From an uncultured Bifidobacteriaceae bacterium (GTDB lineage: Bacteria; Actinomycetota; Thermoleophilia; Miltoncostaeales; Miltoncostaeaceae): a stretch of DNA of 64,000 bases. Below the pieces are notes generated by a model that saw nothing but the letters and a program-made list of their open reading frames with translations, did not search any database and was not told the DNA's origin. Where the stretch lies: assembly GCA_964406645.1 (NCBI GenBank), contig CAYOSM010000001.1, positions 5,564-69,563 on the forward strand, read 5' to 3'. How positions within the stretch are numbered: the stretch's first letter is position 1; every line of letters starts with the position of its first letter. The translations under genes were made by a program, and so were the position numbers. Positions 13,513-63,710 of this stretch are shown piece by piece.

Positions 13513-13539
13513 CGATCGGATGCGGACCGCATCCGATCG
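13513..13539. promoter_or_regulatory. Perfect 13+1+13 palindrome CGATCGGATGCGG-A-CCGCATCCGATCG upstream of the CAP-domain gene
   Basis: Read directly from the sequence; 79 nt upstream of the ATG at 13618. A one-nt spacer favours a dimeric protein operator over an RNA hairpin. Confidence 0.35.
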
Positions 13540-13617
13540 GAATGACAGCCGAGATTGACGACGCTGACGAATCCAACCACAGACACCGATAGGCAAGTGA
13601 CCATCTTCGAGGAGCGC

Positions 13618-51656: not shown

Positions 51657-52873
51657 CGCTCCTCCAGCGTTCGTGTCCGCTGTGCACGCTCGCGCCGACG
51701 TCGACCAGCGGTGGGCAGATTGTCGATGACCTGCACAGGGTGAACGCCGGCCTCGACGGAATGCGTGACTGCCGCCGAGATCCCCGCCCGCCCGAGCCCC
51801 GCCAGAATCGCGGGCATCGACTCGCACCACGCACCCTCGACCTCGCGATCCCGGAGTTCCTGCGATTCGTCCGCGACACCGCGAACCACGTTGAATCGGA
51901 CTGAACCATCACGCGCCTGGAAACGAACACGGACGGCATATCCCGACCACGCGGGACGCACGACATCCGCGAAGCCGTCCTCGGCCAGCATGGTGTCGAA
52001 CTCGGGACCGCACTCATAGCCGAGATCGGCCAGCACACCCTCCAGCGCATCGATCGTATGATCGCGCGCCGCCAGACGACAGCCCTCACGCTCGGCGTCT
52101 TCCAGAGCGGCGACCTGGGCCGGCGGCAGCGGCGTTTCCGGCGCCCATGCCGCGAGCACCGCCCGTGCGGCCTGACATGCGCTGCCCGGAAGACCGGCCA
52201 AGCGCTCCTCCCAGGCCGCGTGCTGCACCGCTGCCGCCCGCCTGCCCGCAGCCGCGTCGTTGGCCGACCGGACCCGCGACCGGATGAGGTCGACGAGAAG
52301 CGCCGCCGTGTCTCTTTCAACGGCAAGCACACGCTCCGCATCGGCGTGGATCGCGTCCACCACCTCGCCGTCCACATCCGCGTCCAATCGATCGATGATG
52401 CGTTTGACCGTTTCGGTCAGCTCCGTCCGGTGATCGTCCTCGACCGATTCTCGGACGGCCAGTCGCTCCTCCATGCGCTCAAGCGAGCGGTCCCGGAGAT
52501 CCTCGCGCCCCTCCACCGGTACCAGCGCGAGAACCGACGCGGCGAAAGCGGCGCCACGACAGCGGCGGGTGGCCGCAGCGAGATCCTCCTCGCATGCGCG
52601 GAGGTCGCCCTCGGCGCGCTGCAGCTCATCCTCGAACTCGCCGGAGTCCTTCCTGGTCGAAAGCGCACCCGGTCGACGGATATCGCCGAGTTCGCGGCCG
52701 AAGCGCGCACGGGCATCACTTAGCGCACCAGCGAAGGCCTGCATCCGGGCCTCTACGTTCGCGCGGCGGGCCACAAGCTCTGCGCGCCGCCGCTGAGCCG
52801 CCAGGACAGCGGGATCGACCGTGTAGCTCACCGACTTGGGACCGGACACGGACTCCTCCTTCAGAGTGCCCAC
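51653..52873 (-). CDS. Hypothetical coiled-coil protein
   Basis: 406 aa; Ala/Arg/Glu-rich helical N-terminal two thirds, mixed C-terminal ~130 aa; coupled at both ends. Confidence 0.6.
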   Translation of the reverse strand: MGTLKEESVSGPKSVSYTVDPAVLAAQRRRAELVARRANVEARMQAFAGALSDARARFGRELGDIRRPGALSTRKDSGEFEDELQRAEGDLRACEEDLAAATRRCRGAAFAASVLALVPVEGREDLRDRSLERMEERLAVRESVEDDHRTELTETVKRIIDRLDADVDGEVVDAIHADAERVLAVERDTAALLVDLIRSRVRSANDAAAGRRAAAVQHAAWEERLAGLPGSACQAARAVLAAWAPETPLPPAQVAALEDAEREGCRLAARDHTIDALEGVLADLGYECGPEFDTMLAEDGFADVVRPAWSGYAVRVRFQARDGSVRFNVVRGVADESQELRDREVEGAWCESMPAILAGLGRAGISAAVTHSVEAGVHPVQVIDNLPTAGRRRRERAQRTRTLEER

Positions 52874-53538
52874 GAGGGTTGTTCGAATGTCACGCCTGCC
52901 TGCCTGAGCCCTTGCTCCATCCGCTCCAGGTCACCGGGTCGAGGAATCCCGATCATCCAGAACGATTCGTCCACCGCAACCTGGAGATGAGGACGGTCGA
53001 CTTCGCGATCGATGAACGGCTCATATCGCACACGCCCCAGATCCGTGAGCGGTGTGATGACCTGATTGTCCGATCCGCACCAGATACGCCGAGTCGGGCG
53101 ACCAGCGACATACGGACCACAGACGACGGCGTCGATCATGCCAATGACACGCGCATACCGACGACGCAGACCGCTCAGTGAATGTGAGGTGAACACCAGT
53201 ACATCAAGGTCGGATCGTCCCCGACGTGACCGAAGCTCCTCGATTCCGGACAGCAACTCGTGAAGTGCATCGGGCTGCTCGAACGGTTCTCCTCCGCTGA
53301 TCGTGATCCCGGTCAGCGGGGAGACCCACATCAGTTCGTCGATCCAGCCGATGACCGTCGTAACCTCGACCATGCGGTGTTCCGCGTGACTCCATGTGTC
53401 GCGGCTGGCGCATCCGGCACAGCCGACGGTGCATCCCTGGAACCAGACGCCGGCCCGCGTGCCCGGCCCCAGAGCGGTCACCGGATGGTGCAAACGACTC
53501 AGATTGATCCGGTGCGCGCGCTCGCCTGGCACCATCAC
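52861..53538 (-). CDS. NrdG/QueE-like radical-SAM activase-type protein (4Fe-4S single-cluster domain)
   Basis: GVWFQGCTVGCAGCASRDTW (CxxxCxxC followed by W, as in anaerobic RNR activases) and ITISGGEPFEQP. No glycyl-radical enzyme or queuosine genes nearby. Confidence 0.75.
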   Translation of the reverse strand: MMVPGERAHRINLSRLHHPVTALGPGTRAGVWFQGCTVGCAGCASRDTWSHAEHRMVEVTTVIGWIDELMWVSPLTGITISGGEPFEQPDALHELLSGIEELRSRRGRSDLDVLVFTSHSLSGLRRRYARVIGMIDAVVCGPYVAGRPTRRIWCGSDNQVITPLTDLGRVRYEPFIDREVDRPHLQVAVDESFWMIGIPRPGDLERMEQGLRQAGVTFEQPSWAL

Positions 53539-53972
53539 GCCGCCCGGACAGCCACACCCGCGTCACGCTTGCGGATCGCCTTCTCAATGGCCCCGACGGC
53601 TCCTTTGGCCTTCGTGATCGCACCAACCTGTTTGATTCCCCCGCGGGACGTCCACTCGGCGTCGGTGATCGCGCACCGGAGCATCGTCTTGCCGTCGGCG
53701 ATCGAGTCCACATCCACCTGCAATCTCGCCATGCTGTCGCCTACACTCCGAAACTCTCGCGCCAACGACTGTCCTCGCTTCTGAACCACCCCTAGTCGCA
53801 CGGGGCCCTTGAGTGTCTTCTGTGCAAGGTCAAATGCTTCGCCCGCGCTCAGTGATGTCGTGATGATCGTTCCGCCCTCAGCCTCAGCGATGACCCGACG
53901 GCTCCAGGCCATGGCCCATGCATAAAGACCAATGAAACCGGCAATGACGACAACAACGATAAATCCGGCCAC
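53535..53972 (-). CDS. Small N-terminally anchored membrane protein
   Basis: 145 aa; MAGFIVVVVIAGFIGLYAWAMAW TM helix; otherwise unassigned. Confidence 0.55.
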   Translation of the reverse strand: MAGFIVVVVIAGFIGLYAWAMAWSRRVIAEAEGGTIITTSLSAGEAFDLAQKTLKGPVRLGVVQKRGQSLAREFRSVGDSMARLQVDVDSIADGKTMLRCAITDAEWTSRGGIKQVGAITKAKGAVGAIEKAIRKRDAGVAVRAA

Positions 53973-54021: not shown

Positions 54022-54465
54022 TCAACGGCCAGCCGACGGAATTCCGGCCCATGTATCGTCATTGCCGTCGTTGACTGAAGTGCTTACTGCGTCCTCATGA
54101 TCGAACTCGAGGACGCCCAGGCAGTAAACGATCAGCGCCACGAGGTGTCCCGGACCCTCCCCGGCCAGCGCGGCCAGTTCCTGGCGATCACCGGATCCGA
54201 TCGACGCCATCACGGCATTGACGATGTCGAGATCCGGTACACGGTCCGATGCATGCGCCTGAACCTGGATCCAGCGGCGCTCGATCTCGTCTCGGTTGAT
54301 CTCGCGATGGCGGCGGAGGCGCGTCAACGCCGCCTCGACCACGGAATCGGCGTCGAACACCATCAAGCGGGCAATCGAGCGGAACGCGGTCTCACGGTCA
54401 CGTCGATACACGTCGAAGACGGCCGTGTCCAGCACCGGCGATAGATCCCGCGCGTCCGTGTTCAT
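54022..54465 (-). CDS. Hypothetical protein
   Basis: Start MNTDARDL at 54465 (ATGA overlap with the upstream stop). The track ORF extends further 5' through the neighbouring gene. Confidence 0.5.
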   Translation of the reverse strand: MNTDARDLSPVLDTAVFDVYRRDRETAFRSIARLMVFDADSVVEAALTRLRRHREINRDEIERRWIQVQAHASDRVPDLDIVNAVMASIGSGDRQELAALAGEGPGHLVALIVYCLGVLEFDHEDAVSTSVNDGNDDTWAGIPSAGR

Positions 54466-55139
54466 CGTCCCCTCTTCGCTCGATAGGCGACCTCGTTGAG
54501 CGCTTCGCCCACACTCCAGTGACTGAAGCGTGGCAGTCGGGCGAAGCGTCCGGCAACCGCATCGACCGCCTGGTCCAGCTTCCCCGATTCGAACGCCCAT
54601 CCGGTGACGTCCGCCACGCGCGATCCCGTCTCGAATCCCAGCATCTCGGAAGCCTGTCCCACAAGGTCGAGAGCCGGTCCCGGCCAGTCGCCGTGCTCCC
54701 GACGGATCTGGCTGGCGACCGTGACCGCTCCGACGGCCTCCCCGCACTCAGCGCCGGCCTGGCCCAGTATCTCCATGACCTCGTCCACCCTGCGGCGGAG
54801 GTCTGCGCACATGATCCGCACATCATTCGCCCGGTCGAGCGCCGTTTCCCGCTCCACCTCGGCGACACCGAGCCGCTCACGGACAGCCGCATCGGCGTCG
54901 GTCACCTCGCCCAGCGTCGACTCGACCGCAGCCCGGCGATCGTCGACCTCTTCGCTCATCGCCGTCACGAACAAAAGGCCACGATGCTGAACGGCCGCGC
55001 TCTCAAGCGCTGGTGCGATCCATCGGTTCCGTATCTCCGCCGTGGCGGTATCGCGCCAGGCGGCCGGCAGATCCTTCATCGACCCCCTGAGGGCCATGGA
55101 CCGTTGACGAAGATGGACGAGGGGCGAATCGTCGGACAT
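54462..55139 (-). CDS. Hypothetical helical protein
   Basis: 225 aa; no motif recognised; coupled to neighbours. Confidence 0.55.
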   Translation of the reverse strand: MSDDSPLVHLRQRSMALRGSMKDLPAAWRDTATAEIRNRWIAPALESAAVQHRGLLFVTAMSEEVDDRRAAVESTLGEVTDADAAVRERLGVAEVERETALDRANDVRIMCADLRRRVDEVMEILGQAGAECGEAVGAVTVASQIRREHGDWPGPALDLVGQASEMLGFETGSRVADVTGWAFESGKLDQAVDAVAGRFARLPRFSHWSVGEALNEVAYRAKRGR

Positions 55140-55145
55140 CGCAGT

Positions 55146-56096
55146 TCACACGAACCGATCGAATTCCCGAAGGGTCGCGGCACGATCGGCGCACGCGCGT
55201 GAGCCCTGCCCGGCCGCTCGTGCGACCTCGGATTGATCCTCAGTGGCACGGGACAGATGCCGCGACACCTCCGACATGGCCTCCTCGCAGTGTTCGGACA
55301 CCGCCCGCATCTCGTCCACCCGCACCGCCATCTCCTCGTGGTGCGAGTGCAGGTCGGCGACGATCCTGATTCCTCCCGTGAGCCGATCCTCGGCCTCGGA
55401 CGCGGTCCCCCTGACCGTCGTGCACATGTCGCGGAGACGGTTGGCGACATCGAGTGCCGCTTCGCACCGTGTCACCGCGGTCAGACAGCACTCGACGCGA
55501 CTAATGGCCTCCTCCAGAAGCGACTGGAGACGTTCTTGCTCTTGGCGGGCGTGAAGGAGATCCGCCTCCGCCTGCCGCAGATCGGCTTCGGCTTCGCTCA
55601 CCGCGCGAGCCTCCCGGGCACCCGCCCGTTCCTCGCGCGCCCGAGCGCGAGCGTTGTTGAGCCGCTGGCGGCACTGGTCGACACCGAACGCGCACCGGCG
55701 GATCTCGGCCTCCGCCATCTCGACCGCCCGTTGCACCTCGTCTCGCCGACGTTCGGCATCACGAAGCCGGGTGCTCCAGAGATCGACGTACTGTTTCGCC
55801 GTCGAAACCGTCTCCTGACAGAGCCGGTCCGTGGAGTGATAGTCGGTGAGCGCCTCCTGGACGACGGTCGCCGACTCCTCGAAGATCGACTGGGCGCTCC
55901 TCAGATTCTCGGCACAGTCGTCGAGGACGACGCGCGCGCGATCGGCGATCACCCGAATATGAGCGACGCCGTCCTGCACTCCTCGACCGGTCACCTCACC
56001 ATGCGACTGCGCCGTCGAGGCCGCGGAGACCAAGCGTTCGGCGTCACTCTGAACCTGGTCGAGGCGTGCAGCGAGACGACCCGGGTCGACAGCCAT
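55146..56096 (-). CDS. Hypothetical all-helical coiled-coil protein, Cys-rich
   Basis: 316 aa; long heptad-like Ala/Glu/Arg helices with at least 10 Cys; its start overlaps the upstream stop by 1 nt. Confidence 0.6.
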   Translation of the reverse strand: MAVDPGRLAARLDQVQSDAERLVSAASTAQSHGEVTGRGVQDGVAHIRVIADRARVVLDDCAENLRSAQSIFEESATVVQEALTDYHSTDRLCQETVSTAKQYVDLWSTRLRDAERRRDEVQRAVEMAEAEIRRCAFGVDQCRQRLNNARARAREERAGAREARAVSEAEADLRQAEADLLHARQEQERLQSLLEEAISRVECCLTAVTRCEAALDVANRLRDMCTTVRGTASEAEDRLTGGIRIVADLHSHHEEMAVRVDEMRAVSEHCEEAMSEVSRHLSRATEDQSEVARAAGQGSRACADRAATLREFDRFV

Positions 56097-56371
56097 CAGA
56101 ATCCGTCCCGGTCCATCTGGCGGAGCACGGTCAACCGTTCGTTGATGAAGATGATGAGGGCTCTGCTCCCCTCGGTGTGTTCAGCGAGCGCCTCCTGTGC
56201 CTGCCTCCACGCCCTCTTGAACTCGTCGGCCGCATTGCCCCCGTAGCGCGCACTGAGGTGGTCATAGCGGTCACCGACACGTCTCAATGCGTTCTCGGCC
56301 GCCGCGCGCTGCTCTTCGAGTACCGCGAGATAGCGTTCGAGGGCCCTGATGATGAACGTGACATCAGCCAC
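56096..56371 (-). CDS. Small helical protein, possibly WXG100 (ESAT-6)-like
   Basis: 91 aa; predicted helix-turn-helix with central YGGNAADEFKRAW; size and position next to the FtsK-like ATPase fit WXG100, but there is no canonical WxG. Confidence 0.4.
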   Translation of the reverse strand: MADVTFIIRALERYLAVLEEQRAAAENALRRVGDRYDHLSARYGGNAADEFKRAWRQAQEALAEHTEGSRALIIFINERLTVLRQMDRDGF

Positions 56372-56636
56372 CGTTCAGATACCTCGCCAGATGCCGCAGG
56401 CGGCTGTGGATGAACGAGTGGAACTTCGGGGCGTCGACTGTGAGATAGGTCGTCAGATTCTCTTCAAAGGGAGATCGCAACCGTTGGAACTCCTTGTACG
56501 CCCGGTCGTCCCAGACGCGCTTAACCTCGGCCTCCGCATCCTCCAGCGCCGAGTTCATCACTCGGAGCGACCTGTGGAACTCGTCCAGTGCGCGACAGAA
56601 CTCCTTCATCGAGATATCGGTCTGATCGAGGTTCAT
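56364..56636 (-). CDS. Small helical protein, possibly WXG100 (ESAT-6)-like
   Basis: 90 aa; central VWDDRAYKEF (W-x-D in place of W-x-G); immediately downstream of the FtsK-like ATPase (ATGA overlap). Confidence 0.4.
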   Translation of the reverse strand: MNLDQTDISMKEFCRALDEFHRSLRVMNSALEDAEAEVKRVWDDRAYKEFQRLRSPFEENLTTYLTVDAPKFHSFIHSRLRHLARYLNGG

Positions 56637-59506
56637 GCGAGGTCCCGGACGAACGCCGCGATCTGATCCTGAAGGAGTCCGGATCTGTCGCCGGCGGGAA
56701 GACGCTGATCCTCAACGGTGAAGGGGATGCAGATCTGGGTACGGTTGATGCCGGCATCGGCCAGCAGCGCCTTGACCGGCTCGGCGTCGGCACCCTGGAC
56801 GGTCCGCGCATCCGCGGTGCCCAGCACCGTGAACGAGTCGTCCTCACCGCATTGAAGAACCATCTTGTGATCGAAGGCACTCATGTGACGGTTGCCACCC
56901 TGCGTCTGCAAGACGCGCGTCAGTCCGACAACGCTCCTGCCCACCACGACGACATGGACACCTACGGTCGGCCCACGGTCGAGTACGTCTCCCAACTGAC
57001 GTCCCAGATCGCTGGGTTCGTCACCGTAGGCATCCCGGACGTGTTCGAGCGCGGCGATGTACTCGGGCTCCAGGATGACGAGCATCACGCTTCGGGCATC
57101 CAGCTGTGCCTGCGGATCGAGGTCACGGCGCTCATCGATGAGCCCCACCAACCTGCCGAGCGTGTCCGCAAGTCCCGAAGGTTGGACCACATGGGCATCA
57201 TGGCCCAGATCGCGCGACACCCCAGGGAGGATGTCGGTGAACAGACCGGTCCAGTCGCCCGGACGCGAAGCCACGACCGTGATCATCTCCAGTCCCCCGG
57301 CCGGCATCGAGAGCGCGACCGACGTGAGTCCGGCAGCGCAGGCACCGAAGACGATCTCGAGATCCTGACCGACGATGAGGAGGTTTCCGCCCCTCCGCCG
57401 GGAGAGGGTGGCGATCGCCTGTCCGTGGACACTCAGGCCCTTCCCGAGCAGCAGGGGAACGGGGCGGTCCGCATCGTGCCATTGGGCGATTCCGAGCCCT
57501 CCACGGTCGGGAACGCTCTCGGCCAACTCGCGACGGCTCTGCGCATCGAGCCCACGCAGCGCGGCGATCCTCGGAAGCGCGGCGTTGGCGCGGAGGAACG
57601 GTTGGCAGTCACCGACGAACACGATCGGCCGTCGGTCCTCGTAGCCTCCAGCGTCCGCCTTGGACCGAATGTCGGATATGCACGCCGACAGCTCCGCATC
57701 GTCAAGCATGGCAATTCGGCCTGCCCGGTTGGCCGCATCCGCTCCGGCACGGGAGTTGACGACGGCCTTGCCGGGTGAATCACAGTGGCGCTTGATGAGA
57801 TCGCGCCCCTGCTTTCCGAACTCGACGAGTGACGCCTGCTCAGATTGACCCAGCGCGACGAGGTTGTGCATGTTCTCCATCATCGCGCTACTCCCGACCA
57901 TTCCCTGGGCGACGAAGCGCTGCGAGACAAGGAACAGGTGAACACCGGCCGCCCGCCCCTGCGCGGCGATCTTCTTAAGAGCATTCGAGGCGCGCTCCGA
58001 CTGCTCGATGGTGGATCCGAACAGTTCGTGGTACTCGTCGACGATGATGACGAGCCGGGGAAGCCGACGATCGTCAACCGCAGCTCGAAGGGCCGAGTAC
58101 TGGCGGACGTTGTCCTCGACACCGAGATCGTCGAACAGCCCGAAGCGGCGGTCAAGCTCCTCGGCCGCGTCCAGAAGGACGCTCAGCATCATCTCGGGTT
58201 GCGTCTTCAGCGACACCAATCGGGCGTGCGGGAGATCGCGGTAGATGCGGAACTCCACTCCCTGTTTGCCGTCGATGAGGTAGAAGGCGACCTCATCCGG
58301 TCCGTATCGCGTTGCCGCGCCGGTGATGAATGAGTGCAGAGCGATCGACTTGCCCATGCCGGGCATCCCGGCCTGGATCGTGTGCGCATAGACCTGTCGG
58401 TCCATGACCCCTGCCGGCCCCGGAGCCACCACCTCGCCGTAGGTGAGTTCGAGAAGCTGCGACGGGCCCGCCTGACCGATGGGCACGGTCACCGCCTCGA
58501 GACTCGAATGCTGCCACCAGCGACTCGGTTCGGTCTGGTTGATGGACGCCCACGTGACACGCGGTTGAACGGGCGTGAACCTCGAGAGAACACCGAGCCG
58601 CTCCCGTGCCGTCGTGAGGTCGCCACCCAAGGAGTCGAGCCGGAGTTCGCAGGCGAGTCCGCCCCACTCGACGCGCGTACGATCACCGGCGATGTCGACC
58701 GTTGTCGTCTCGCCGAGGTCGAGGCCCCCGGCATCACGGGTGTCGACATCGAGATCGTGATGGACGACGACGAGCGCACCGGCGGGAGCGAACCGGACCA
58801 CACGTCGCAATGCGTCCAGCGCCCGTCTGTCACACCCATTCGGGATGTCAGCCGCGACGACGAGGTTGAACCGCTCGCTCATGCGAAGCTCGTCGGGAAG
58901 ATCCGCCAGTGGTACGTCCGGGTAGAGATCGGTGACCCGCTGGCAATACGCAGCCACCTGGGCGAGCTGCTCGGCGATGTCGCCGCTCGCCGCTACGACG
59001 CCCGGGATGTCCGCCGAGAGGGGAAAGCTCCGCCCCATGCCGATCGGATCGATGAGGTGCACGCGCACCTGATGAGGCATAGAGAGCGCCACGCGCAGGG
59101 CGATGGACTGGAGGAACTCCTTGGCCCGGGCCGCCGCGTCCCCGCCGCGCGTCCGGATGACGATCGGACGGTCGGACCCGACGAACGGCACAAGCGCGGG
59201 AGCCACGAACTCGCCCTGATCCAGGAGGTCTCCGATCCGGATCCACCGTGGTGGGGCGGCGTGATCGGGTTCCCATGTCGACCATGCGGCATGGCTCCAC
59301 GGACGCCGCGCAGCGACTTCATCGTCACCGACAGCCGCATCGATGGCCACACGGTTGCGGCTGAGTTCATCAACCACATGGCGGTCGGCGACAGTCGCGG
59401 CGGCAAGACCGGCACCGATCTGGCCGCGAAGCTCCGCCCGGGCGGCATCGAGTTGCTGACGGATCGTGTCAAGCTGTGCGCGGGCACTGTCGATGGCGGC
59501 GCTCAC
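56633..59506 (-). CDS. FtsK/SpoIIIE-family ATPase, EccC/EssC-like, soluble (no TM seen)
   Basis: Walker A QAGMPGMGKSIAL; Walker B LPRLVIIVDEYHELF; AAQGRAAGVHLFLVSQRF. Downstream ATPase-like modules lack a P-loop (degenerate). N-terminal coiled coil. Confidence 0.82.
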   Translation of the reverse strand: MSAAIDSARAQLDTIRQQLDAARAELRGQIGAGLAAATVADRHVVDELSRNRVAIDAAVGDDEVAARRPWSHAAWSTWEPDHAAPPRWIRIGDLLDQGEFVAPALVPFVGSDRPIVIRTRGGDAAARAKEFLQSIALRVALSMPHQVRVHLIDPIGMGRSFPLSADIPGVVAASGDIAEQLAQVAAYCQRVTDLYPDVPLADLPDELRMSERFNLVVAADIPNGCDRRALDALRRVVRFAPAGALVVVHHDLDVDTRDAGGLDLGETTTVDIAGDRTRVEWGGLACELRLDSLGGDLTTARERLGVLSRFTPVQPRVTWASINQTEPSRWWQHSSLEAVTVPIGQAGPSQLLELTYGEVVAPGPAGVMDRQVYAHTIQAGMPGMGKSIALHSFITGAATRYGPDEVAFYLIDGKQGVEFRIYRDLPHARLVSLKTQPEMMLSVLLDAAEELDRRFGLFDDLGVEDNVRQYSALRAAVDDRRLPRLVIIVDEYHELFGSTIEQSERASNALKKIAAQGRAAGVHLFLVSQRFVAQGMVGSSAMMENMHNLVALGQSEQASLVEFGKQGRDLIKRHCDSPGKAVVNSRAGADAANRAGRIAMLDDAELSACISDIRSKADAGGYEDRRPIVFVGDCQPFLRANAALPRIAALRGLDAQSRRELAESVPDRGGLGIAQWHDADRPVPLLLGKGLSVHGQAIATLSRRRGGNLLIVGQDLEIVFGACAAGLTSVALSMPAGGLEMITVVASRPGDWTGLFTDILPGVSRDLGHDAHVVQPSGLADTLGRLVGLIDERRDLDPQAQLDARSVMLVILEPEYIAALEHVRDAYGDEPSDLGRQLGDVLDRGPTVGVHVVVVGRSVVGLTRVLQTQGGNRHMSAFDHKMVLQCGEDDSFTVLGTADARTVQGADAEPVKALLADAGINRTQICIPFTVEDQRLPAGDRSGLLQDQIAAFVRDLA

Positions 59507-59829
59507 AGAGCCACCACGAGAATGAGGATCAGGACGATCACAGCGATGGCGATACCGACGCCGATCATCACATTGCGACGCTGAGCCTCGAGGCGGGCGA
59601 TCTCGGCTTCCTGCGCCTCCAGGCGCTGAGCGGCATCAGCGATCTGCGTGTTCGCCTCACGCGCGGACGACAGGGCACGCTCGAGCGTAACGGAGGCGGC
59701 CGCCGGCTCACCATCGAACTGACGGGTGTCCGCATCGCCGAAGCCGGCGAGTTCCGCGCGCAGATCGGCGATCCGCGCCCTGTCCAGGTGAAGGTCGGCT
59801 CTCTCTGAGAGCAGGCTGTCAATCATCAT
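59503..59829 (-). CDS. Small coiled-coil protein with C-terminal TM anchor
   Basis: 108 aa; C-terminal VMIGVGIAIAVIVLILILVVAL. Confidence 0.55.
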   Translation of the reverse strand: MMIDSLLSERADLHLDRARIADLRAELAGFGDADTRQFDGEPAAASVTLERALSSAREANTQIADAAQRLEAQEAEIARLEAQRRNVMIGVGIAIAVIVLILILVVAL

Positions 59830-59862: not shown

Positions 59863-60672
59863 TCAGTCGCCGACGACATCCGTGATCTTCTTGGCATCGG
59901 TCTCCATGAACACGTCGGCTCCCGATGGCGCCAGGAGGTCCTCCCACAGCCGTTCCACCGCCGGTCCGCGGTCCGTCGTGATGCGTCGGTCGCGTCCGAC
60001 CCCGACGAGCCAGATCCGGAACCCGGAGAGGTCAGGCGGCTTGAACGTCGACCGGATCCTCTTGAGGGTCTGCTGGTAGCGCTGCTCATTCTCGATCGGG
60101 GTCCTCGTCAGCGCGATCCCCTTGTCGAGATCGACGATGAGGCCGTTAGTGACGAACACCATGCGTGCCTCGAGGTCGTTCTGCCGTGAACGTTGCACAA
60201 CGCGCTTGTGCTCGTTGGCAGTCTGCCGGAACACCCCGAGAAGGTCGGATTCACAGGGTTGTCCCGTGGGCCGCCGTGTGACGACCGGGAGCAACTCCTG
60301 GAGCGCCGCGTCCCGCGCGTCGATGGCGTTCGAGATCCGGACCGTCGCGTTGTTACCCCTGGCCGCGAAGTTGACCTCTTCGAAGTCGATGTTCTGCGAC
60401 GCCAGCGCACGCACGGTTCCGACCTCCAGGCGACCGCCGTTGACCGCCGCCGCCGTCGCCGCCATCTGAAGGCCGACCTTCAGGTCCTCCTTGTCCTTCG
60501 GCTCGTCCATGTCACAACTGACGTCCGCGACGAAGTAGACGACCTGCTTGCCGTTGCCCGTGTCGCCCGGAAGGGCGAGTCCCGTCTCGGGATCCTCCTG
60601 GCTCGCACCGGCGCAGCCCGCTCCGGCCACGAGCAAGCCCACAAACAGCAATGACACCGCGATCCGCCTCAT
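59863..60672 (-). CDS. Lipoprotein with vWA-like domain
   Basis: Lipobox LLVAGAGC; MIDAS-like VVYFVADVSCDM (DxSxD); overall alpha/beta alternation. Weak call. Confidence 0.45.
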   Translation of the reverse strand: MRRIAVSLLFVGLLVAGAGCAGASQEDPETGLALPGDTGNGKQVVYFVADVSCDMDEPKDKEDLKVGLQMAATAAAVNGGRLEVGTVRALASQNIDFEEVNFAARGNNATVRISNAIDARDAALQELLPVVTRRPTGQPCESDLLGVFRQTANEHKRVVQRSRQNDLEARMVFVTNGLIVDLDKGIALTRTPIENEQRYQQTLKRIRSTFKPPDLSGFRIWLVGVGRDRRITTDRGPAVERLWEDLLAPSGADVFMETDAKKITDVVGD

Positions 60673-61580
60673 ATCAAGACTCCCTCTCTGATTCGCGTGG
60701 CCTCCGCGGCCAGCAGTTTGTCGATCCTCTGAATACGATCGGCAGTGGATGGGTGTGTGTCGAGCAGACGCTCGGTGGACGGCACCAGATCCTCACGTGT
60801 GAGAGCCGCGCGATGCGCGAGCAGTTCGCGCAGAGGACGGCCATACCCGCACGCGACAGCAAAGGCGTCCGCCATGAACTCCCGGCGCCGGGAGGAGATC
60901 CCCCACAGGAAACGGAACGGCCCGGTGACGCTGGCGGTCAACCAGAGGATGAACCTCCCGACGAGCCTCCCGACAGCGCCCAGCCGGGCGATGGCCAGCA
61001 CGACCCGATCGACCAGATGAACGGGCATCAGGTACCAGTAGACCGCCCCGGTGAGAAACTGATCTCGGTGCACGTGGTGGCCGACCTCGTGGGCGACCAT
61101 GGCCTGGACGTATGTCGGTGGAAAGAACAGTGCTCCCCCGAGGACATCCGCTGAGACCGCGACGGTGCTGTCGCTGGAGTACGTCGCGTTGAACCACATC
61201 TTCGCGACCCGGAGACGGAATACATCGGGGCGTATACCACCGGCCGTGCACACGGGCCCGAGCGCACGCTGAAGCTGTGTGAGTTCGACGCCCGTGGGCG
61301 CCCGATTGGAGGCGACCTCCGCCTGAATGGCGTGCGCCAGGGACGGAATGAGAAAAACGAGGCCGAGCAGAACCCAGATCACCACAACCGCCCAGAGCAC
61401 CCCCCATCCGAACTGCCATTGGAGCAGAGCCCAGACGGGCAGGAGCACTGTGGCTCCGGCGGCAGCGGCGGCGGCGATGGCGAGACAGCGGCCGATCGAC
61501 GGTGTAGCGGTCAGCGGGCGACTGACGGTGTAGCCGACTCTGGGATCATCACCCTCCGCCCACGGGACGGGAGCCGTCAT
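60669..61580 (-). CDS. M48-family (HtpX/Ste24-like) membrane zinc metallopeptidase
   Basis: HExxH MVAHEVGHHVHRD; downstream EFMADAFAV and THPSTADRIQRI; N-terminal TM helices. Confidence 0.8.
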   Translation of the reverse strand: MTAPVPWAEGDDPRVGYTVSRPLTATPSIGRCLAIAAAAAAGATVLLPVWALLQWQFGWGVLWAVVVIWVLLGLVFLIPSLAHAIQAEVASNRAPTGVELTQLQRALGPVCTAGGIRPDVFRLRVAKMWFNATYSSDSTVAVSADVLGGALFFPPTYVQAMVAHEVGHHVHRDQFLTGAVYWYLMPVHLVDRVVLAIARLGAVGRLVGRFILWLTASVTGPFRFLWGISSRRREFMADAFAVACGYGRPLRELLAHRAALTREDLVPSTERLLDTHPSTADRIQRIDKLLAAEATRIREGVLI

Positions 61581-62530
61581 GCCACGTCCTTCTGGGGAAC
61601 GTTGGTCTTAATGGCGTCATCGATCTCTCGGTACTTCTCGGCGATCAACTCCCGGTCGTCGGGACCGTCGCCCGCGACCTGATTGACGGCGTGCGTGAAG
61701 TATTCACGAGCCTTCCCGAAGTAGTTCACCTCGAGCTCGTCGAGATCACGAACCAGACCATCGATCTCGGCAGTCTCCTGAGGAATGGTGATGTCGAGTT
61801 CGCTCTTCGCCGCCGCCACCGCGTTCGCCCAGGCACGTTCCCGCACGCGGAAGTCCCGTCGTGGTCCCCCGCGGATGACGCCGTCCGAGATACCAAAGAT
61901 GATCGCTGTGGCGGCCCCTGCCAGAAGCGCCCCTCCGAGTCTCTCCATCGTGGTGTGTGCGTCGTCGATCAGCGCTGCCATGAGCACAGCGGCGACGATC
62001 GCCGCCACCGCCAGCACGCCGAGCCGTCCCCTCTCACGAATCCCGAGCCCGCGCGTGGCGAACAGCCCACCGAGTCCGAATGCGATCGCGATGGCTCCAG
62101 CAACCGCACCGACACCCCAGGAGAGTCCGAGAAGTCGCGCGAAGCCGACGGTGGCTCCGACCGCTGCGCCGCACGCCAGGACCGCGACGGTTCGCCCATA
62201 TGCGGGGCCGTGGGCAGCGTCGTATTCCGTCGGGGCCTCGGGCGCCGTTCCCAGTTGTTCGATCCGTTCCTTAAGAGCGTCGGTCCGGACCTCGAGCGCG
62301 TCGGCCCGAGAGAGCAGCCGTTCACGCAGCCCGTCCACAAGATCGTCGATGACGTGGATTGTCTGGAGCGTACGCGCGGCGACACTCTGGATCGTCCGTC
62401 TATCTCCCTCCGTCGGAATACGGCGATCATCGACGATCTCGCTGCGAAGACCGGAAACCGACGCCTGTACCAGGGTCTCGACGCGAGCGCTCTGCTCGCC
62501 CAGCAGCATGCCGTGCGAATCGTCAGGCAT
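61577..62530 (-). CDS. Membrane protein (helical N-domain + Gly/Ala-rich TM bundle)
   Basis: Start MPDDSHGM at 62530 (8-nt overlap with the upstream gene); TM-rich core GRTVAVLACGAAVGATVGFA...; no motif recognised. Confidence 0.55.
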   Translation of the reverse strand: MPDDSHGMLLGEQSARVETLVQASVSGLRSEIVDDRRIPTEGDRRTIQSVAARTLQTIHVIDDLVDGLRERLLSRADALEVRTDALKERIEQLGTAPEAPTEYDAAHGPAYGRTVAVLACGAAVGATVGFARLLGLSWGVGAVAGAIAIAFGLGGLFATRGLGIRERGRLGVLAVAAIVAAVLMAALIDDAHTTMERLGGALLAGAATAIIFGISDGVIRGGPRRDFRVRERAWANAVAAAKSELDITIPQETAEIDGLVRDLDELEVNYFGKAREYFTHAVNQVAGDGPDDRELIAEKYREIDDAIKTNVPQKDVA

Positions 62531-63710
62531 CGGCCGAACCGTTCGCTGCGACCATTCCCTGAGCGCCCGGCACCTCGCCGCCCGTGCGCATGCGCTCCAG
62601 GAGAGCTTTGGCCTCGTGCTGGTGCTCCTCCACGAGCCTCTTGACGTCAGCCTCGGCGTCGGACACCTGGGCAATGAGTGCCTTGACAGACTGAGCCAAA
62701 TCGTCACGCTCGTTCACGTAGTTGTTCTGGGCGGTGTGCCCTCTTCCCTCGCTTGTCAGGCACTCGTTCGCAATCATCACGACGACGTTCGGCACCGTGG
62801 AGATGGCGCCGTGATACGCCTGCGTGATGGTGCCCAGATGCAGGAGCGCCTTGCTCCGAGCGGCCGTGGCGTCGTGGAACGCACGGTCAGCTGCAACCGC
62901 CTCCTTCTGCGCGTTCTCACACGCATGCTTGGCCTCTCGGTACTCCGCCGTTCGTGCGTGATTGATCCCGGCCACCGCCGCCGTGAGGGTGGCGAGCCCG
63001 GAGATCCCACCGAGGGCGACCAGGACCCAGAATTTGAAGCTGTCACGGTCGATGTTCAATCCGGCGACCCGAAAATCCTGAGCGCGGAGAAACGTCAGTG
63101 ACACCAAGATCAGAACGATCAGAAGACCGGCGGCCACCGCGAGGAACATGAGCGGCCGTCTCTGTCGTGCGTTCTCACCCGTCGCGATCCAGCGTTCTCC
63201 GAGCCAGCCATAGAGCCAGTGAATGACCCAGGTGAGGAGGCCCGAGATGAGCACGACCAGCCCCAGGATGGCCCACTCTGGGAAGTCAAGGTTCTGAAAA
63301 GCAATGAAAAGAAGAAAGCACTCCAGGAGGAATGAGAAGCCGAGCAGGATGATCTGCCCAAGCAGGGCCGAGTGCGGTGGCGGACCGAGCGTCCTCAGGC
63401 GATCACTCGCGCTGATCTCAATCGACCGCGCGGACTCAAGGTCGTGCTGGGTTCGAATTGCCGCTCCGGCCTCCGTGATGACCGTCGTCACGGAGTTATG
63501 AAGCGCCTCCGCTCCGTCCTGAGCCAGGTCGCGGGCATTGGCCTCACCCTCCTGGAACACGGACTGCACATACGGATGCGCGGGGAGTGCATGAACGGTC
63601 CCCTCGTCCAGCGGTCCTCGCTCCTTCGCCTCCTCCAGCCAGCCATTGATGCCAACCCGGACGATCTCCAGACTCGGCGTCACACGGACGCCGCGCTCAC
63701 CACGTGCCAT
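62523..63710 (-). CDS. Membrane protein, first gene of the long operon
   Basis: 395 aa; AGGAGG (complement of 63716-63721) 5 nt upstream of the ATG; 4-5 TM helices in the centre; helical C-terminus. The ~290 nt upstream are non-coding. Confidence 0.6.
   Translation of the reverse strand: MARGERGVRVTPSLEIVRVGINGWLEEAKERGPLDEGTVHALPAHPYVQSVFQEGEANARDLAQDGAEALHNSVTTVITEAGAAIRTQHDLESARSIEISASDRLRTLGPPPHSALLGQIILLGFSFLLECFLLFIAFQNLDFPEWAILGLVVLISGLLTWVIHWLYGWLGERWIATGENARQRRPLMFLAVAAGLLIVLILVSLTFLRAQDFRVAGLNIDRDSFKFWVLVALGGISGLATLTAAVAGINHARTAEYREAKHACENAQKEAVAADRAFHDATAARSKALLHLGTITQAYHGAISTVPNVVVMIANECLTSEGRGHTAQNNYVNERDDLAQSVKALIAQVSDAEADVKRLVEEHQHEAKALLERMRTGGEVPGAQGMVAANGSADA

What the first reader, a model, noticed from the sequence alone, without database searches (positions are those of the whole stretch)
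55146..59829. Minimal T7SS-like core: soluble EccC-like FtsK ATPase plus two WXG100-sized helical proteins but no EccB/EccD/EccE/MycP
The 957-aa ATPase has one intact P-loop module (GMPGMGKS / IIVDEYHELF) followed by degenerate modules, as in EccC/EssC, but no TM segment or fused FHA. Directly downstream are two overlapping ~90-aa ORFs with a central W-x-D or aromatic turn (VWDDRAYKEF; AADEFKRAW), then a 316-aa Cys-rich coiled coil. Elsewhere in the operon an FHA domain and a kinase-fold membrane protein are encoded as separate genes. This recalls the FHA of EssC and the pseudokinase fold of EssB in firmicute T7SSb, but here the kinase looks catalytically intact. Inference: a split, phospho-regulated T7SS-like exporter, or an FtsK-type motor used for something else.
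Basis: partly seen in the sequence, partly recalled or inferred. Interest (0 to 1): 0.62.

Follow-up and report, generated by a model that had tools for sequence, protein, structure and literature searches.

The report
Mobile T7SS-like ATPase–WXG100 cassette
This stretch is a new example of a six-gene cassette that comparative genomics has already called a 'mobile version of type VII secretion': a three-domain EccC-like ATPase, a small membrane-anchor protein and two ESAT-6-like hairpin proteins. It has never been tested experimentally, and the nearby kinase and FHA genes belong to a different cassette.

Summary
On the minus strand, 54462-59829 encodes six tightly packed genes, five of them joined by overlapping start and stop codons. 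They are a 108-aa coiled-coil protein with a C-terminal transmembrane helix, a 957-aa ATPase, two ~90-aa paralogous helical hairpins, a 316-aa coiled coil and a 225-aa helical protein.

The ATPase has three FtsK-like domains, and only the middle one keeps Walker A/B. By fold and by profile it groups with EccC/EssC, not with FtsK or TraB. The hairpins belong to the WXG100 superfamily, of the H. pylori HP0062 type (W-x-D turn).

The same cassette, in the same order, occurs in about 30 genomes from several phyla and on a Deinococcus plasmid. Zhang et al. 2012 and Bell et al. 2024 already described it from sequence. So this is a new member of a known but untested kind.

The ATPase is probably not free in the cytosol, because a tail-anchored membrane partner sits just upstream in 27 of 31 loci and is fused to the ATPase in other relatives. 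The FHA, PP2C and kinase genes belong to a separate, widespread AAA+/radical-SAM cassette, so they are not split EssC/EssB parts.

Export of the hairpins remains an inference.

The parts
59503..59829 (-). cc108: a 108-aa coiled-coil protein with a C-terminal (tail-anchor) transmembrane helix (residues 86-108, nt 59506-59574). Proposed membrane anchor of the ATPase. Its stop overlaps the ATPase start codon.
   Evidence: Translation. Homologous to the L001 upstream ORF at E 8e-9. A tail-anchored coiled-coil ORF lies directly upstream of the ATPase in 27 of 31 full-length loci and in the Deinococcus plasmid. A coiled coil plus transmembrane segment is fused to the ATPase N-terminus in L010, P0004, P0005, P0009 and L035.
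56633..59506 (-). 957-aa EccC/EssC-like ATPase. N-terminal helix residues 2-59 (nt 59330-59503). Degenerate domain D1, residues 85-335 (58502-59254). Active domain D2, residues 336-610 (57677-58501), with Walker A at 58346-58369 and Walker B at 58031-58054. Degenerate domain D3, residues 611-957 (56636-57676).
   Evidence: Pfam FtsK_SpoIIIE 7.6e-32. NCBIfam EccCa 88.8, EssC 68.3 and FtsK 36.3 bits, all below the equivalog cut-offs. hhalign internal repeats. AF2 mean pLDDT 76.9. Foldseek best hits EccC 4nh0 and 4n1a, then EssC 4lya and 5fv0. The family profile aligns D2 to ATPase 1 of EccC, EccC5 and YukB.
56364..56636 (-). wxA: a 90-aa WXG100-superfamily hairpin of the HP0062 type. The W42-D43-D44 turn is at nt 56505-56513. 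The C-terminal tail A-R-Y-L-N-G-G is at nt 56367-56387, with Y86 invariant and L87 nearly invariant.
   Evidence: The family profile hits H. pylori HP0062 (3fx7) over its full length at E 2.6e-5, T. curvata EsxB 4lws at 7.7e-4 and S. aureus EsxA at 0.05. Y86 is invariant and L87 at least 90% conserved across 19 sequences. It is syntenic in about 30 loci.
56096..56371 (-). wxB: a 91-aa paralog of wxA. WXG100-like hairpin with its turn at Y43-G44-G45 (nt 56237-56245). G45 is invariant in the family.
   Evidence: Pfam WXG100 E 1.1e-3, below the gathering score. hhalign wxA versus wxB families: 93.6%, E 2e-7. AF2 from a single sequence: pLDDT 88.8, helix 2-43, turn, helix 46-88. The top ~20 Foldseek PDB hits are all WXG100 proteins (CFP-10, EsxB, HP0062), TM 0.73-0.81, but with weak E-values of 0.06-0.5.
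55146..56096 (-). cc316: a 316-aa coiled-coil protein with 10 Cys. W107 is invariant, and the family shares a C-terminal L..FD motif. Candidate LXG-like carrier or effector. The cyanobacterial orthologs carry a C-terminal GNAT domain.
   Evidence: Colinear alignment with the ~320-340-aa protein at the same position in about 30 loci. GNAT fusions in L007 and L008. Only generic coiled-coil matches in PDB. A single-sequence search of 1.84 billion representative proteins finds only itself.
54462..55139 (-). p225: a helical protein with a W-x-D-x-A motif near its N-terminus. It corresponds to the ~150-aa protein that ends the cassette in other phyla. Here and in L001 it carries an extra ~80-aa C-terminal extension.
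   Evidence: Iterative HMM search and synteny. A relation to WXG100 was tested and not supported: hhalign 4%. PDB gives only coiled-coil noise.
54022..54465 (-). p147: a small protein of unknown function that overlaps the stop of p225. Possibly a lineage-specific accessory of the cassette.
   Evidence: No family hit. Only weak similarity to the 102-aa protein at the same position in L001: pairwise E 0.027.
59863..63710 (-). Neighbouring cassette A, not part of the core: two membrane proteins (395 and 317 aa), an M48 peptidase (303 aa) and a lipoprotein (269 aa).
   Evidence: The same four genes in the same order occur in L046 and L047 with no FtsK/WXG genes nearby. Pfam Peptidase_M48 9e-13.
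45503..53972 (-). Neighbouring cassette C, not part of the core: a 145-aa transmembrane protein, an NrdG-like radical SAM enzyme, a 398-aa protein, a ClpB-D2-like AAA+ ATPase, a zinc-ribbon-FHA protein, PP2C, and a Ser/Thr kinase with transmembrane segments.
   Evidence: Pfam. PADLOC PDC-M37B 1.2e-28. The AAA+ protein has at least 535 metagenomic relatives. Among 80 loci, the radical SAM gene is adjacent in 66, FHA in 27, PP2C in 28, the kinase in 27, and an FtsK-like gene in 2.

Best explanation
What it is (well supported). Window 54462-59829 (minus strand) is one copy of a conserved, horizontally mobile cassette that Zhang et al. 2012 called a 'mobile version of T7SS'. It contains:
- a tail-anchored coiled-coil membrane protein;
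- a pair of paralogous WXG100-type hairpins;
- two larger helical proteins.

How it most likely works (inferred step by step):
1. The N-terminal helix of the ATPase pairs with the coiled coil of the 108-aa protein. This tethers an ATPase hexamer to the cytoplasmic membrane and gives it a ring of transmembrane helices. These take the place of the fused transmembrane helices of EccC.
2. wxA and wxB form an EsxA/EsxB-like four-helix bundle.
3. The conserved C-terminal Y-L tail of wxA docks on a degenerate ATPase domain, as the EsxB signal does on EccC, and switches on the single active domain.
4. ATP hydrolysis drives the hairpin dimer, together with the larger helical proteins (cc316, p225), into or across the membrane.
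5. The role is in biological conflict. In cyanobacterial copies the same carrier domains are fused to a restriction-endonuclease-fold toxin and to GNAT domains.

In this window the cassette lies in one tightly packed run of genes between two unrelated cassettes, inside an island rich in TIR-NTPase genes. The neighbouring kinase, PP2C and FHA genes are components of the adjacent AAA+/radical-SAM cassette. They are not parts of this machine, although regulatory cross-talk is not excluded.
For: Identity:
- Three-domain architecture.
- Foldseek ranks EccC (4nh0, E 1.9e-30 over 976 columns) and EssC above FtsK.
- The family profile gives EccC 178, EccC5 150, YukB 128 and FtsK 75 bits. The active domain aligns to ATPase 1.
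- wxA matches HP0062. wxA and wxB are paralogs. wxB is predicted to be a hairpin, and its top structural neighbours are all WXG100 proteins.

Conservation and mobility:
- The same six genes in the same order occur in Vibrionaceae, Pseudoalteromonas, cyanobacteria, Bacteroidota, Verrucomicrobiota and Ghiorsea.
- They also occur next to IS elements on a Deinococcus plasmid.

Literature:
- PMC3482391, Table 1 footnote 6.
- PMC11090510, section 10.
- PMC4978471.

Membrane tether:
- A tail-anchored ORF lies upstream in 27 of 31 loci, with basic residues before the helix.
- A coiled coil plus transmembrane segment is fused to the ATPase in L010, P0004, P0005, P0009 and L035.
- The stop of cc108 overlaps the ATPase start.

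Signal:
- Y86 is invariant and L87 at least 90% conserved at the wxA C-terminus.

Cargo:
- L008 carries a wxB-like domain fused to Tox-REase-2 (Pfam 1e-9, above the gathering score), followed by a small ORF.
- The cc316 orthologs in L007 and L008 carry C-terminal GNAT domains.

Context:
- Three TIR-NTPase-TPR proteins, a TrkA_N/RyR protein and a HerA/TrwB-like ATPase lie upstream.
Against: - No experiment on any member was found in the papers searched.
- No complex could be modelled, so steps 1-3 rest on synteny, gene fusions and analogy.
- No EccB/D/E, MycP, EsaA, EssA/B or ubiquitin-like EsaB/YukD component was detected. Many hosts are diderms, and no outer-membrane conduit is evident.
- Bell et al. 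2024 argue that the lack of transmembrane segments points to 'a different mechanism'.
- The Verrucomicrobial loci L021 and L022 have no recognisable tail-anchor ORF.
- The fusion in L010 has a single transmembrane helix, which does not obviously give the same topology.
- In this window neither cc316 nor p225 carries a recognisable toxin domain, and no immunity gene is evident.
- The Foldseek E-values for the 91-aa hairpin are weak (0.06-0.5).
- No RNA data show that the genes are expressed.
Confidence: 0.55

Rival explanations
1. Intracellular conflict effector rather than an exporter. On a trigger such as phage infection, perhaps sensed by a neighbouring cassette, the membrane-tethered ATPase remodels or releases the helical proteins inside the producing cell. 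For example, it could drive them into the cell's own membrane to depolarise it (abortive infection). Alternatively it could cooperate with the other coiled-coil defence proteins. Nothing leaves the cell.
For: - The cassette sits in a defence-type island.
- The family is repeatedly embedded in CoCoNuT Type III-A and TerY-P defence operons, and those authors favour a mechanism other than secretion.
- The FtsK-like domain also occurs in defence proteins: PADLOC SspH 2.5e-24 and mad8 1.8e-13.
- Many hosts are diderms with no outer-membrane component nearby.
- Soluble EccC-like ATPases of the same build, but without WXG genes, occur inside two AAA+/radical-SAM/kinase operons, L089 and L121.
Against: - The wxB-like domain fused to a polymorphic-toxin nuclease, followed by a small ORF, is the architecture typical of exported toxins.
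- The conserved membrane anchor and the EsxB-like C-terminal tail fit a translocase.
- In Vibrio plantisponsor (L011), the one Vibrionaceae locus whose flanking genes were scanned, the cassette stands alone among housekeeping genes with no defence partner.
Confidence: 0.3
2. One reading: a split, phospho-regulated T7SS. The separately encoded FHA protein, PP2C and membrane kinase would be integral parts of the exporter, standing in for the FHA domains of EssC and for EssB.
For: - All the genes lie on one strand with overlapping or very short gaps, and no terminator-like site lies in a gap between the cassettes.
- Kinases, phosphatases and FHA proteins are common in the T7SSc-j clusters, and T7SSd has a membrane kinase plus a single-transmembrane protein.
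- The Verrucomicrobial locus L031 has a PP2C and a kinase-FHA protein directly upstream of the cassette.
- TerY-P triads accompany the cassette elsewhere.
- Module C contains an EccC-like ATPase in L089 and L121.
Against: - The FHA, PP2C and kinase genes travel with the ClpB-like AAA+ and radical SAM genes in dozens of loci that lack any FtsK or WXG gene.
- The two closest relatives of the ATPase have different neighbours and no kinase, PP2C or FHA hit by window-seeded phmmer or precomputed Pfam. L001 has vWA, Tubulin_2 and an APH-fold protein. L005 shows none within its 8-kb contig.
- In about 25 other loci window-seeded searches found no kinase, PP2C or FHA homolog, and Pfam found none among the L011 neighbours scanned.
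- The kinase here is catalytically intact and has its own large C-terminal membrane domain, unlike the EssB pseudokinase.
Confidence: 0.12
3. A DNA translocase of the FtsK/TraB type, for example the transfer motor of an integrative element. The small ORFs would be unrelated.
For: - Public annotation of the Deinococcus homolog reads 'DNA translocase FtsK'.
- The island carries a HerA/TrwB-like ATPase.
- The region has lower GC than the flanking chromosome.
Against: - The protein has three tandem domains with a single active one. No FtsK gamma/winged-helix domain was detected.
- EccC and EssC outrank FtsK and TcpA by both fold and profile.
- The linkage to WXG100 hairpins across phyla is invariant.
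Confidence: 0.03

Closest known systems
'Mobile version of T7SS': solo WXG proteins with a YueA-like ATPase that has three HerA/FtsK domains, only the middle one active. Described by Zhang et al. 2012 (PMC3482391, Table 1 footnote 6). [quoted passage not shown] 2024 (PMC11090510) and Anantharaman et al. 2012.
   Same: - ATPase with no transmembrane segment, an N-terminal coiled coil and three domains, with only the central one active.
[quoted passage not shown]
- A coiled-coil protein, then a small helical protein.
- Mobile and associated with conflict islands.
   Different: - No flanking TerY-type vWA genes and no McrBC/CnuH core.
- The coiled-coil protein has no nuclease or GNAT domain.
- The host lineage (a high-GC wastewater bacterium) is not among those listed in 2012, and neither is Deinococcus.
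- Here it is packed between an M48/lipoprotein cassette and an AAA+/radical-SAM/kinase cassette.
- The conserved tail-anchored partner is not mentioned in the texts I could read. Anantharaman et al. 2012 could not be read.
Canonical type VII secretion ATPases EccC (T7SSa) and EssC/YukB (T7SSb)
   Same: - Tandem FtsK-like domains; they are the best structural and profile matches.
- The active domain corresponds to ATPase 1.
- Operon linkage to a WXG100 pair that has a conserved C-terminal tail.
   Different: - No fused transmembrane helices or FHA domains.
- Three rather than four NTPase-like domains.
- The domains on either side of the active one have lost Walker A/B.
- Scores lie far below the NCBIfam equivalog cut-offs (88.8 versus 509).
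- No EccB/D/E, MycP, EsaA, EssA, EssB or EsaB.
T7SSd of Actinomycetota (Garrett, Higginson and Palmer 2024, PMC11217815)
   Same: A very small component set: the ATPase, a WXG100 protein, a membrane Ser/Thr kinase and a short single-transmembrane protein.
   Different: TsdC is membrane-bound with functional-looking FHA domains and four NTPase domains. TsdI, a large cell-envelope protein, is absent here. The kinase here belongs to another cassette.
H. pylori HP0062 (PDB 3fx7, 2gts) with the FtsK/SpoIIIE protein HP0066
   Same: An ~86-aa helical hairpin with W-R-D at the turn in place of W-x-G, next to an FtsK-like ATPase in a Gram-negative host. It is the best PDB match of wxA.
   Different: HP0062 crystallised as a homodimer, whereas here there are two diverged paralogs. 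The Campylobacterota ATPases match only the active domain (27-29% identity).
FtsK / SpoIIIE / TraB / TcpA DNA translocases
   Same: The RecA-like P-loop motor fold of the active domain.
   Different: Those have a single motor domain with DNA-binding accessory domains, score lower, and have no WXG partners.

Membership tests
Mobile EssC-like ATPase / WXG100 cassette (Zhang 2012; Bell 2024) | [quoted passage not shown] | tested here: met
   hhalign gives D1 versus D2 at 90.5% and D3 versus D2 at 95%. GMPGMGKS and LVIIVDEY occur only in D2. AF2 shows three alpha/beta domains.
Mobile EssC-like ATPase / WXG100 cassette (Zhang 2012; Bell 2024) | No transmembrane segment or FHA domain on the ATPase; an N-terminal coiled coil instead | tested here: met
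   AF2 predicts a helix over residues 2-59. The only hydropathy peaks (1.6-1.7) fall inside strands of D3. Pfam finds no FHA domain.
Mobile EssC-like ATPase / WXG100 cassette (Zhang 2012; Bell 2024) | Two adjacent WXG100-type proteins, one with the W motif and one without | tested here: met
   wxA has W-D-D and wxB has Y-G-G. The two families are paralogs at 93.6%. HP0062 and WXG100 structures are the best matches.
Mobile EssC-like ATPase / WXG100 cassette (Zhang 2012; Bell 2024) | A coiled-coil protein and then a small helical protein downstream, in conserved order | tested here: met
   cc316 and p225 align with the proteins at the same positions in about 30 loci.
Mobile EssC-like ATPase / WXG100 cassette (Zhang 2012; Bell 2024) | CoCoNuT III-A form only: a nuclease domain on the coiled-coil protein, and flanking TerY-like vWA genes | tested here: not met
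   cc316 ends at the family's C-terminal FD motif with no extra domain. The upstream lipoprotein has no vWA hit and belongs to a separate cassette. This excludes the CoCoNuT-embedded form but not the stand-alone cassette.
WXG100 superfamily (PF06013) | About 100 residues folded as a helix-turn-helix hairpin | tested here: met
   wxB by AF2: pLDDT 88.8, helices 2-43 and 46-88. The wxA profile aligns over its full length to the HP0062 hairpin.
WXG100 superfamily (PF06013) | W-x-G motif at the turn | tested here: not met
   wxA has W-D-D, as HP0062 has W-R-D. wxB has Y-G-G. Each keeps half of the motif.
WXG100 superfamily (PF06013) | Pfam or NCBIfam model score above the curated cut-off | tested here: not met
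   wxB scores 19.6 bits against 27.3 (Pfam) and 17.8 against 44.85 (TIGR03930). wxA has no hit. Membership rests on profile and fold evidence instead.
WXG100 superfamily (PF06013) | Encoded next to an FtsK/SpoIIIE-family ATPase | tested here: met
   wxA overlaps the ATPase stop codon.
WXG100 superfamily (PF06013) | Forms a homo- or heterodimeric four-helix bundle and is secreted | not testable with these tools
No expression or secretion data exist.
EccC / EssC type VII secretion ATPase | Tandem FtsK-like NTPase domains, closest in fold to solved EccC/EssC | tested here: met
   Foldseek: 4nh0 E 1.9e-30, 4n1a 1.9e-23, 4lya 6e-20, 5fv0 7e-18; FtsK 3.8e-15. Profile: EccC 2.3e-51.
EccC / EssC type VII secretion ATPase | N-terminal transmembrane helices on the same polypeptide | tested here: not met
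   The 957-aa protein has none. A separate tail-anchored protein is encoded upstream.
EccC / EssC type VII secretion ATPase | Score above the NCBIfam equivalog cut-offs (TIGR03924, TIGR03925, TIGR03928) | tested here: not met
   88.8 against 509, 68.2 against 347, and 68.3 against 778 bits.
EccC / EssC type VII secretion ATPase | A C-terminal ATPase domain binds the substrate's C-terminal signal | not testable with these tools
   The only evidence is the conserved Y-L tail of wxA, with Y86 invariant. No complex could be modelled.
T7SSa / T7SSb complete systems | EccB, EccD, EccE and MycP (a), or EsaA, EssA, EssB and EsaB (b), in the locus | tested here: not met
   No such Pfam or NCBIfam family was found in any ORF scanned: 18 genes of the run and 20 other window ORFs.
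FtsK / TraB DNA translocase | A single motor domain with DNA-recognition modules; best similarity to FtsK | tested here: not met
   FtsK ranks below EccC and EssC by fold, profile and NCBIfam score (36.3 bits). No FtsK_gamma domain was found.

The most novel reading that the evidence does not exclude
A tail-anchored coiled-coil protein plus a three-domain EccC-like hexamer with one active site would be, on their own, a complete minimal protein translocon. This would be a split type VII machine that works in both monoderm and diderm bacteria. It would push WXG-type helical bundles and their fused toxins through a pore made only of the anchor helices. In this window it would act as the effector arm of a composite conflict system, triggered by the adjacent kinase/FHA/AAA+/radical-SAM cassette.
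Probability: 0.2. Interest if true: 0.8.

Novelty: new member of a known kind. Interest (0 to 1): 0.42.

Why it matters
Type VII secretion is studied almost entirely in Actinomycetota and Bacillota, where the machines have many membrane components.

This cassette keeps only the two universal parts, the EccC-type ATPase and the WXG100 hairpins, plus a one-helix membrane anchor. It has spread on mobile DNA into at least six phyla, most of them diderm. If it exports proteins, it defines the minimal requirements of the type VII mechanism. It would also give tractable hosts, such as Vibrio, Pseudoalteromonas and Deinococcus, in which to study that mechanism. If it does not export, it shows a T7SS-type motor reused inside defence islands.

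Either result would be informative, and no experiment on any member was found in the papers searched. The copy in this window adds little beyond a new host lineage and an unusual three-cassette arrangement. The observation that matters for the whole family is the conserved tail-anchored partner, because it removes the main published argument against a membrane function.

Tried and rejected
1. An apparent link between the cassette and ClpB/radical-SAM genes in cyanobacteria was rejected. Those are full-length housekeeping ClpB and NrdG-like genes among unrelated neighbours.
2. The upstream lipoprotein as a TerY-like vWA domain flanking the cassette. It has no vWA hit in Pfam or PDB. Its homologs always follow an M48 peptidase and two membrane proteins, with no FtsK gene nearby. 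Rejected.
3. p225 as a third WXG100 domain. The iterative HMM search suggested it, but hhalign gives 4%. Not supported.
4. The cc316 C-terminus as related to the wxB C-terminal helix. hhalign gives 22%. Too weak to use.
5. Fold assignment of cc316 and p225 by PDB profiles gave only tropomyosin and designed coiled-coil noise.
6. A single-sequence search with cc316 against 1.84 billion representative proteins found only itself, so it gave no measure of family size.
7. A profile search of the 5.8-billion-protein set did not return the Gram-negative relatives, because the word prefilter was saturated by ordinary EccC/FtsK proteins.
9. No RNA runs hold the region.
10. The promoter and terminator scan was no better than shuffled sequence.
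11. The organism could not be named. Cluster look-ups returned no names, and the flanking PurL gene is uninformative. 'Actinomycetota' remains a guess based on GC content and on distant Pseudonocardiales relatives.
12. Anantharaman et al. 2012 is not held and could not be read.


Full report
**What is in the sequence.** The finding lies on the minus strand, inside a run of 18 genes (63710 down to 45503). Their start and stop codons overlap or are separated by at most about 50 nt.

- a 108-aa ORF (59503-59829);
- the 957-aa ATPase (56633-59506);
- two ORFs of 90 and 91 aa (56364-56636 and 56096-56371);
- a 316-aa coiled-coil protein with 10 cysteines (55146-56096).

A 225-aa ORF (54462-55139) and a 147-aa ORF (54022-54465) follow directly. 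Identical copies of the operon occur on contigs from several wastewater and activated-sludge metagenomes. It is therefore not an assembly artefact. The scan for promoter- and terminator-like sites found no more than in shuffled sequence. No RNA run holds the region.

**The ATPase.** Pfam finds one FtsK_SpoIIIE domain, at E 7.6e-32 over residues 365-531. NCBIfam ranks EccCa (88.8 bits) above EssC (68.3), EccCb (68.2) and FtsK (36.3). All of these lie far below the equivalog cut-offs.

I cut a 17-sequence family alignment (A5) into segments and compared them by profile. Residues 85-335 and 611-957 are each homologous to the central domain, at 90.5% and 95% hhalign probability. Neither keeps a Walker A lysine or the Walker B acidic pair. 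An AlphaFold2 model (mean pLDDT 76.9) has an N-terminal helix over residues 2-59, followed by three alpha/beta domains.

Against the PDB, the best Foldseek match is the three-ATPase cytoplasmic fragment of Thermomonospora curvata EccC (4nh0, E 1.9e-30 over 976 columns). Next come EccC ATPases 2-3 (4n1a) and EssC (4lya, 5fv0). The FtsK motor appears only at 3.8e-15, over a single domain. The family profile gives 178 bits for EccC, 150 for EccC5, 128 for YukB and about 75 for FtsK. Its active domain aligns best to ATPase 1 of each T7SS protein. The degenerate first domain therefore sits where T7SS ATPases have their first, motif-less NTPase-like domain. Garrett et al. count four NTPase domains in those proteins.

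**The two small proteins.** Homologs of both follow the ATPase in about 30 loci.

- The wxA family has W-[QDR]-D at mid-length. Y86 is invariant and L87 at least 90% conserved, a few residues from the C-terminus.
- The wxB family has x-x-G at the same alignment position, with G45 invariant.
- The two families are paralogs: hhalign 93.6%, E 2e-7.

The wxA profile matches H. pylori HP0062 over its full length (3fx7, E 2.6e-5), T. curvata EsxB (4lws, 7.7e-4) and, weakly, S. aureus EsxA. HP0062 is a solved helical hairpin dimer with W-R-D at the bend, and it is encoded near an FtsK/SpoIIIE protein.

wxB has only sub-threshold WXG100 hits. A single-sequence AlphaFold2 model is nevertheless confident (pLDDT 88.8) and shows helix 2-43, a turn at G44-G45, then helix 46-88. 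Its top ~20 structural neighbours in the PDB are all WXG100 proteins: CFP-10/ESAT-6, B. anthracis EsxB, T. curvata EsxA/B and HP0062. TM-scores are 0.73-0.81, but the E-values are weak, as expected for a 90-residue hairpin.

Dimer formation and export could not be tested.

**It is a known cassette.** A scan of one genome per species with the ATPase alignment returned about 30 full-length relatives, at 27-33% identity and E 1e-76 to 1e-133. They come from Vibrio, Photobacterium, Pseudoalteromonas, Enterovibrio, cyanobacteria, Bacteroidota, Verrucomicrobiota and Ghiorsea. A plasmid search added Deinococcus actinosclerus. There the six genes lie next to IS elements and are annotated 'DNA translocase FtsK' plus hypothetical proteins.

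The gene order is the same throughout: a small coiled-coil ORF, the ATPase (~958 aa), wxA, wxB, a coiled-coil protein of ~320-340 aa, and a helical protein of ~150 aa.

The literature already describes it.

- Zhang et al. [quoted passage not shown] - Bell et al. [quoted passage not shown] They cite Anantharaman et al. 2012 for its mobility and its association with TerY-P triads (PMC11090510).

None of the papers I searched or read reports an experiment on any member.

**What I can add about the family.** The published argument against a membrane function is that these ATPases lack transmembrane helices. But the ORF directly upstream of the ATPase is a coiled-coil protein that ends in a hydrophobic helix within a few residues of its C-terminus. 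This holds in 27 of 31 loci with a full-length relative, and also in the Deinococcus plasmid. The helix is usually preceded by Arg/Lys, which suggests the coiled coil faces the cytoplasm.

In this window that ORF is the 108-aa protein, and its stop overlaps the ATPase start. It is clearly homologous to its counterpart in the closest locus (E 8e-9).

In a Bacteroidales contig (L010) the coiled coil and helix are part of the ATPase ORF. More distant relatives (P0004, P0005, P0009, L035) have one or two transmembrane helices between a long N-terminal coiled coil and the ATPase domains.

These fusions, the synteny and the start-stop overlap make it likely that the 'soluble' ATPase is held at the membrane by a partner supplied as a separate protein. 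The exceptions are the two Verrucomicrobial loci and one N-terminally short cyanobacterial ORF. I could not check whether Anantharaman et al. 2012 had already noted this partner.

**Hints about cargo.**

- In Prochloron (L008) a wxB-like domain is fused to a Tox-REase-2 nuclease (Pfam 1e-9, above the gathering score) and is followed by a 125-aa ORF.
- In Phormidium (L007) a wxB-like domain carries a C-terminal region with a D...EAK motif.
- The cc316 orthologs of both cyanobacteria end in a GNAT domain.
- In Vibrionaceae the cassette is followed by a ~480-aa and a ~790-aa gene. In V. plantisponsor these are a GDPD phosphodiesterase and a multi-transmembrane protein.

A carrier domain followed by a variable enzymatic domain is the layout of polymorphic toxins exported by type VII systems. 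This favours export. In this window, however, cc316 and p225 have no such domain.

Their folds could not be assigned, because PDB profiles return only generic coiled coils. The suspected WXG relation of p225 failed a profile-profile test at 4%.

**The rest of the operon consists of two other cassettes.** The upstream lipoprotein (59863-60672) has only four homologs. In the two that lie on contigs long enough to show neighbours, it follows two membrane proteins and an M48 peptidase, exactly as here, with no FtsK or WXG gene nearby.

Downstream, the ClpB-D2-like AAA+ protein (PADLOC PDC-M37B, 1.2e-28) has at least 535 metagenomic relatives. In 80 sampled loci, the NrdG-like radical SAM gene is adjacent in 66, an FHA protein in 27, PP2C in 28, a Ser/Thr kinase in 27, and an FtsK-like gene in only 2. 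The FHA, PP2C and kinase genes therefore belong to that cassette.

The two closest relatives of the ATPase have quite different neighbours. L001 has a vWA protein, a Tubulin_2 protein and an APH-fold protein. L005 shows nothing comparable within its short contig. A more distant relative sits among Hsp70, DnaJ and GrpE genes.

Some link cannot be dismissed, for four reasons. The Verrucomicrobial locus L031 has a PP2C and a kinase-FHA gene directly upstream of the cassette. TerY-P triads accompany the cassette elsewhere. Two AAA+/radical-SAM operons (L089, L121) contain an EccC-like ATPase of the same build but no WXG genes. And kinases, phosphatases and FHA proteins are common in the newly described T7SSc-j clusters.

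**Context.** Coordinates 1 to about 12000 have about 70% GC and encode housekeeping genes such as PurL. The remainder has 60-67% GC and carries three TIR-NTPase-TPR proteins, a TrkA_N/RyR protein and a HerA/TrwB-like ATPase. This is a typical island of conflict systems. The organism could not be named.

**Verdict.** The T7SS-like identity of the core is supported.

The most likely mechanism is an anchor-tethered EccC-type hexamer that moves its own WXG-type helical proteins into or across the cytoplasmic membrane, for a role in conflict. Its identity is well supported. Every mechanistic step is inferred from synteny, gene fusions and analogy with EccC-EsxB. The main rival is an intracellular, defence-type use of the same motor.

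The feature is a new member of a kind known from sequence analysis since 2012. Its interest lies in the family, which has not been characterised experimentally, rather than in this particular copy.

Noticed in passing
window 45503-53972 (-); loci L049-L128: A widespread five-gene cassette: a ClpB-D2-like AAA+ ATPase with a novel ~340-aa N-terminal domain, an NrdG-like radical SAM enzyme with no glycyl-radical enzyme nearby, an FHA protein, PP2C, and a Ser/Thr kinase. It has at least 535 metagenomic relatives, and its gene order varies. The AAA+ protein matches PADLOC candidate PDC-M37B. Its function is unknown.
   Followed up: partly
L121 1278-11836; L089 20-11089: Two AAA+/radical-SAM/kinase operons also encode an EccC-like ATPase with no fused transmembrane segment. 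It has a long N-terminal coiled coil, the D1 motif 'IDPxxxGxSF' and an active central P-loop, and is 25% identical to the window ATPase. There are no WXG-like genes; instead there are ~335-aa proteins ending in zinc ribbons.
   Followed up: partly
window 59863-63710 (-); L046 6896-10855; L047 6242-10201: A conserved four-gene cassette of unknown function: two multi-transmembrane proteins with coiled coils (~400 and ~330 aa), an M48 metallopeptidase and a ~270-aa lipoprotein. In L046 it lies near STAND NTPase, APH, TrwB and relaxase genes.
   Followed up: partly
window 27901-30813 (+), 31994-35185 (+), 41040-44114 (+), 36991-39822 (-): Three TIR-NTPase(STAND)-TPR proteins and a 943-aa TrkA_N plus RyR-domain protein lie next to the operon. 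Together with the drop in GC from about 70% to 60-67% near 12 kb, this suggests a horizontally acquired island of conflict systems.
   Followed up: partly
L001 12333-19698: In the closest relative's locus the cassette is followed by a signal-peptide/transmembrane vWA protein with a perfect MIDAS motif, a 1026-aa Tubulin_2 (PF13809) protein and two large proteins of unknown function. A 1125-aa APH-fold protein lies upstream.
   Followed up: no
L043 6720-16626: A distant relative of the ATPase (P0006, 27% identity) is embedded between Hsp70, DnaJ-TPR and GrpE genes and a second DnaJ-TPR gene. It is followed by proteins of 229, 86, 90, 265 and 120 aa, a different chaperone-linked variant.
   Followed up: no
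L011 14639-18509 and the same position in about 10 other Vibrionaceae loci: In Vibrionaceae the cassette is regularly followed by a ~480-aa gene and a ~790-aa gene. In L011 these are a GDPD phosphodiesterase and a protein with N- and C-terminal clusters of hydrophobic helices around a ~460-aa soluble region. The large protein has no Pfam or PDB match.
   Followed up: partly
window 55146-56096 (-) and orthologs: The cc316 family keeps cysteines at fixed positions, for example a C-C or C-x pair in 'RV.CC..AV' and Cys residues in the central loop of most orthologs. This is unusual for a cytoplasmic coiled coil and is unexplained.
   Followed up: no
L129 (Deinococcus actinosclerus plasmid CP029776.1) 8513-13752: A complete copy of the cassette lies on a 188-kb plasmid from wastewater, next to IS701 and IS4 transposases. 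It is annotated only as 'DNA translocase FtsK' plus hypothetical proteins. This is a cultivable, annotated carrier.
   Followed up: yes
window 11922-15111 (+): At the edge of the island there is a UPF0114 membrane protein with a long N-terminal extension, and a secreted CAP (cysteine-rich secretory protein) plus fibronectin-III protein.
   Followed up: no
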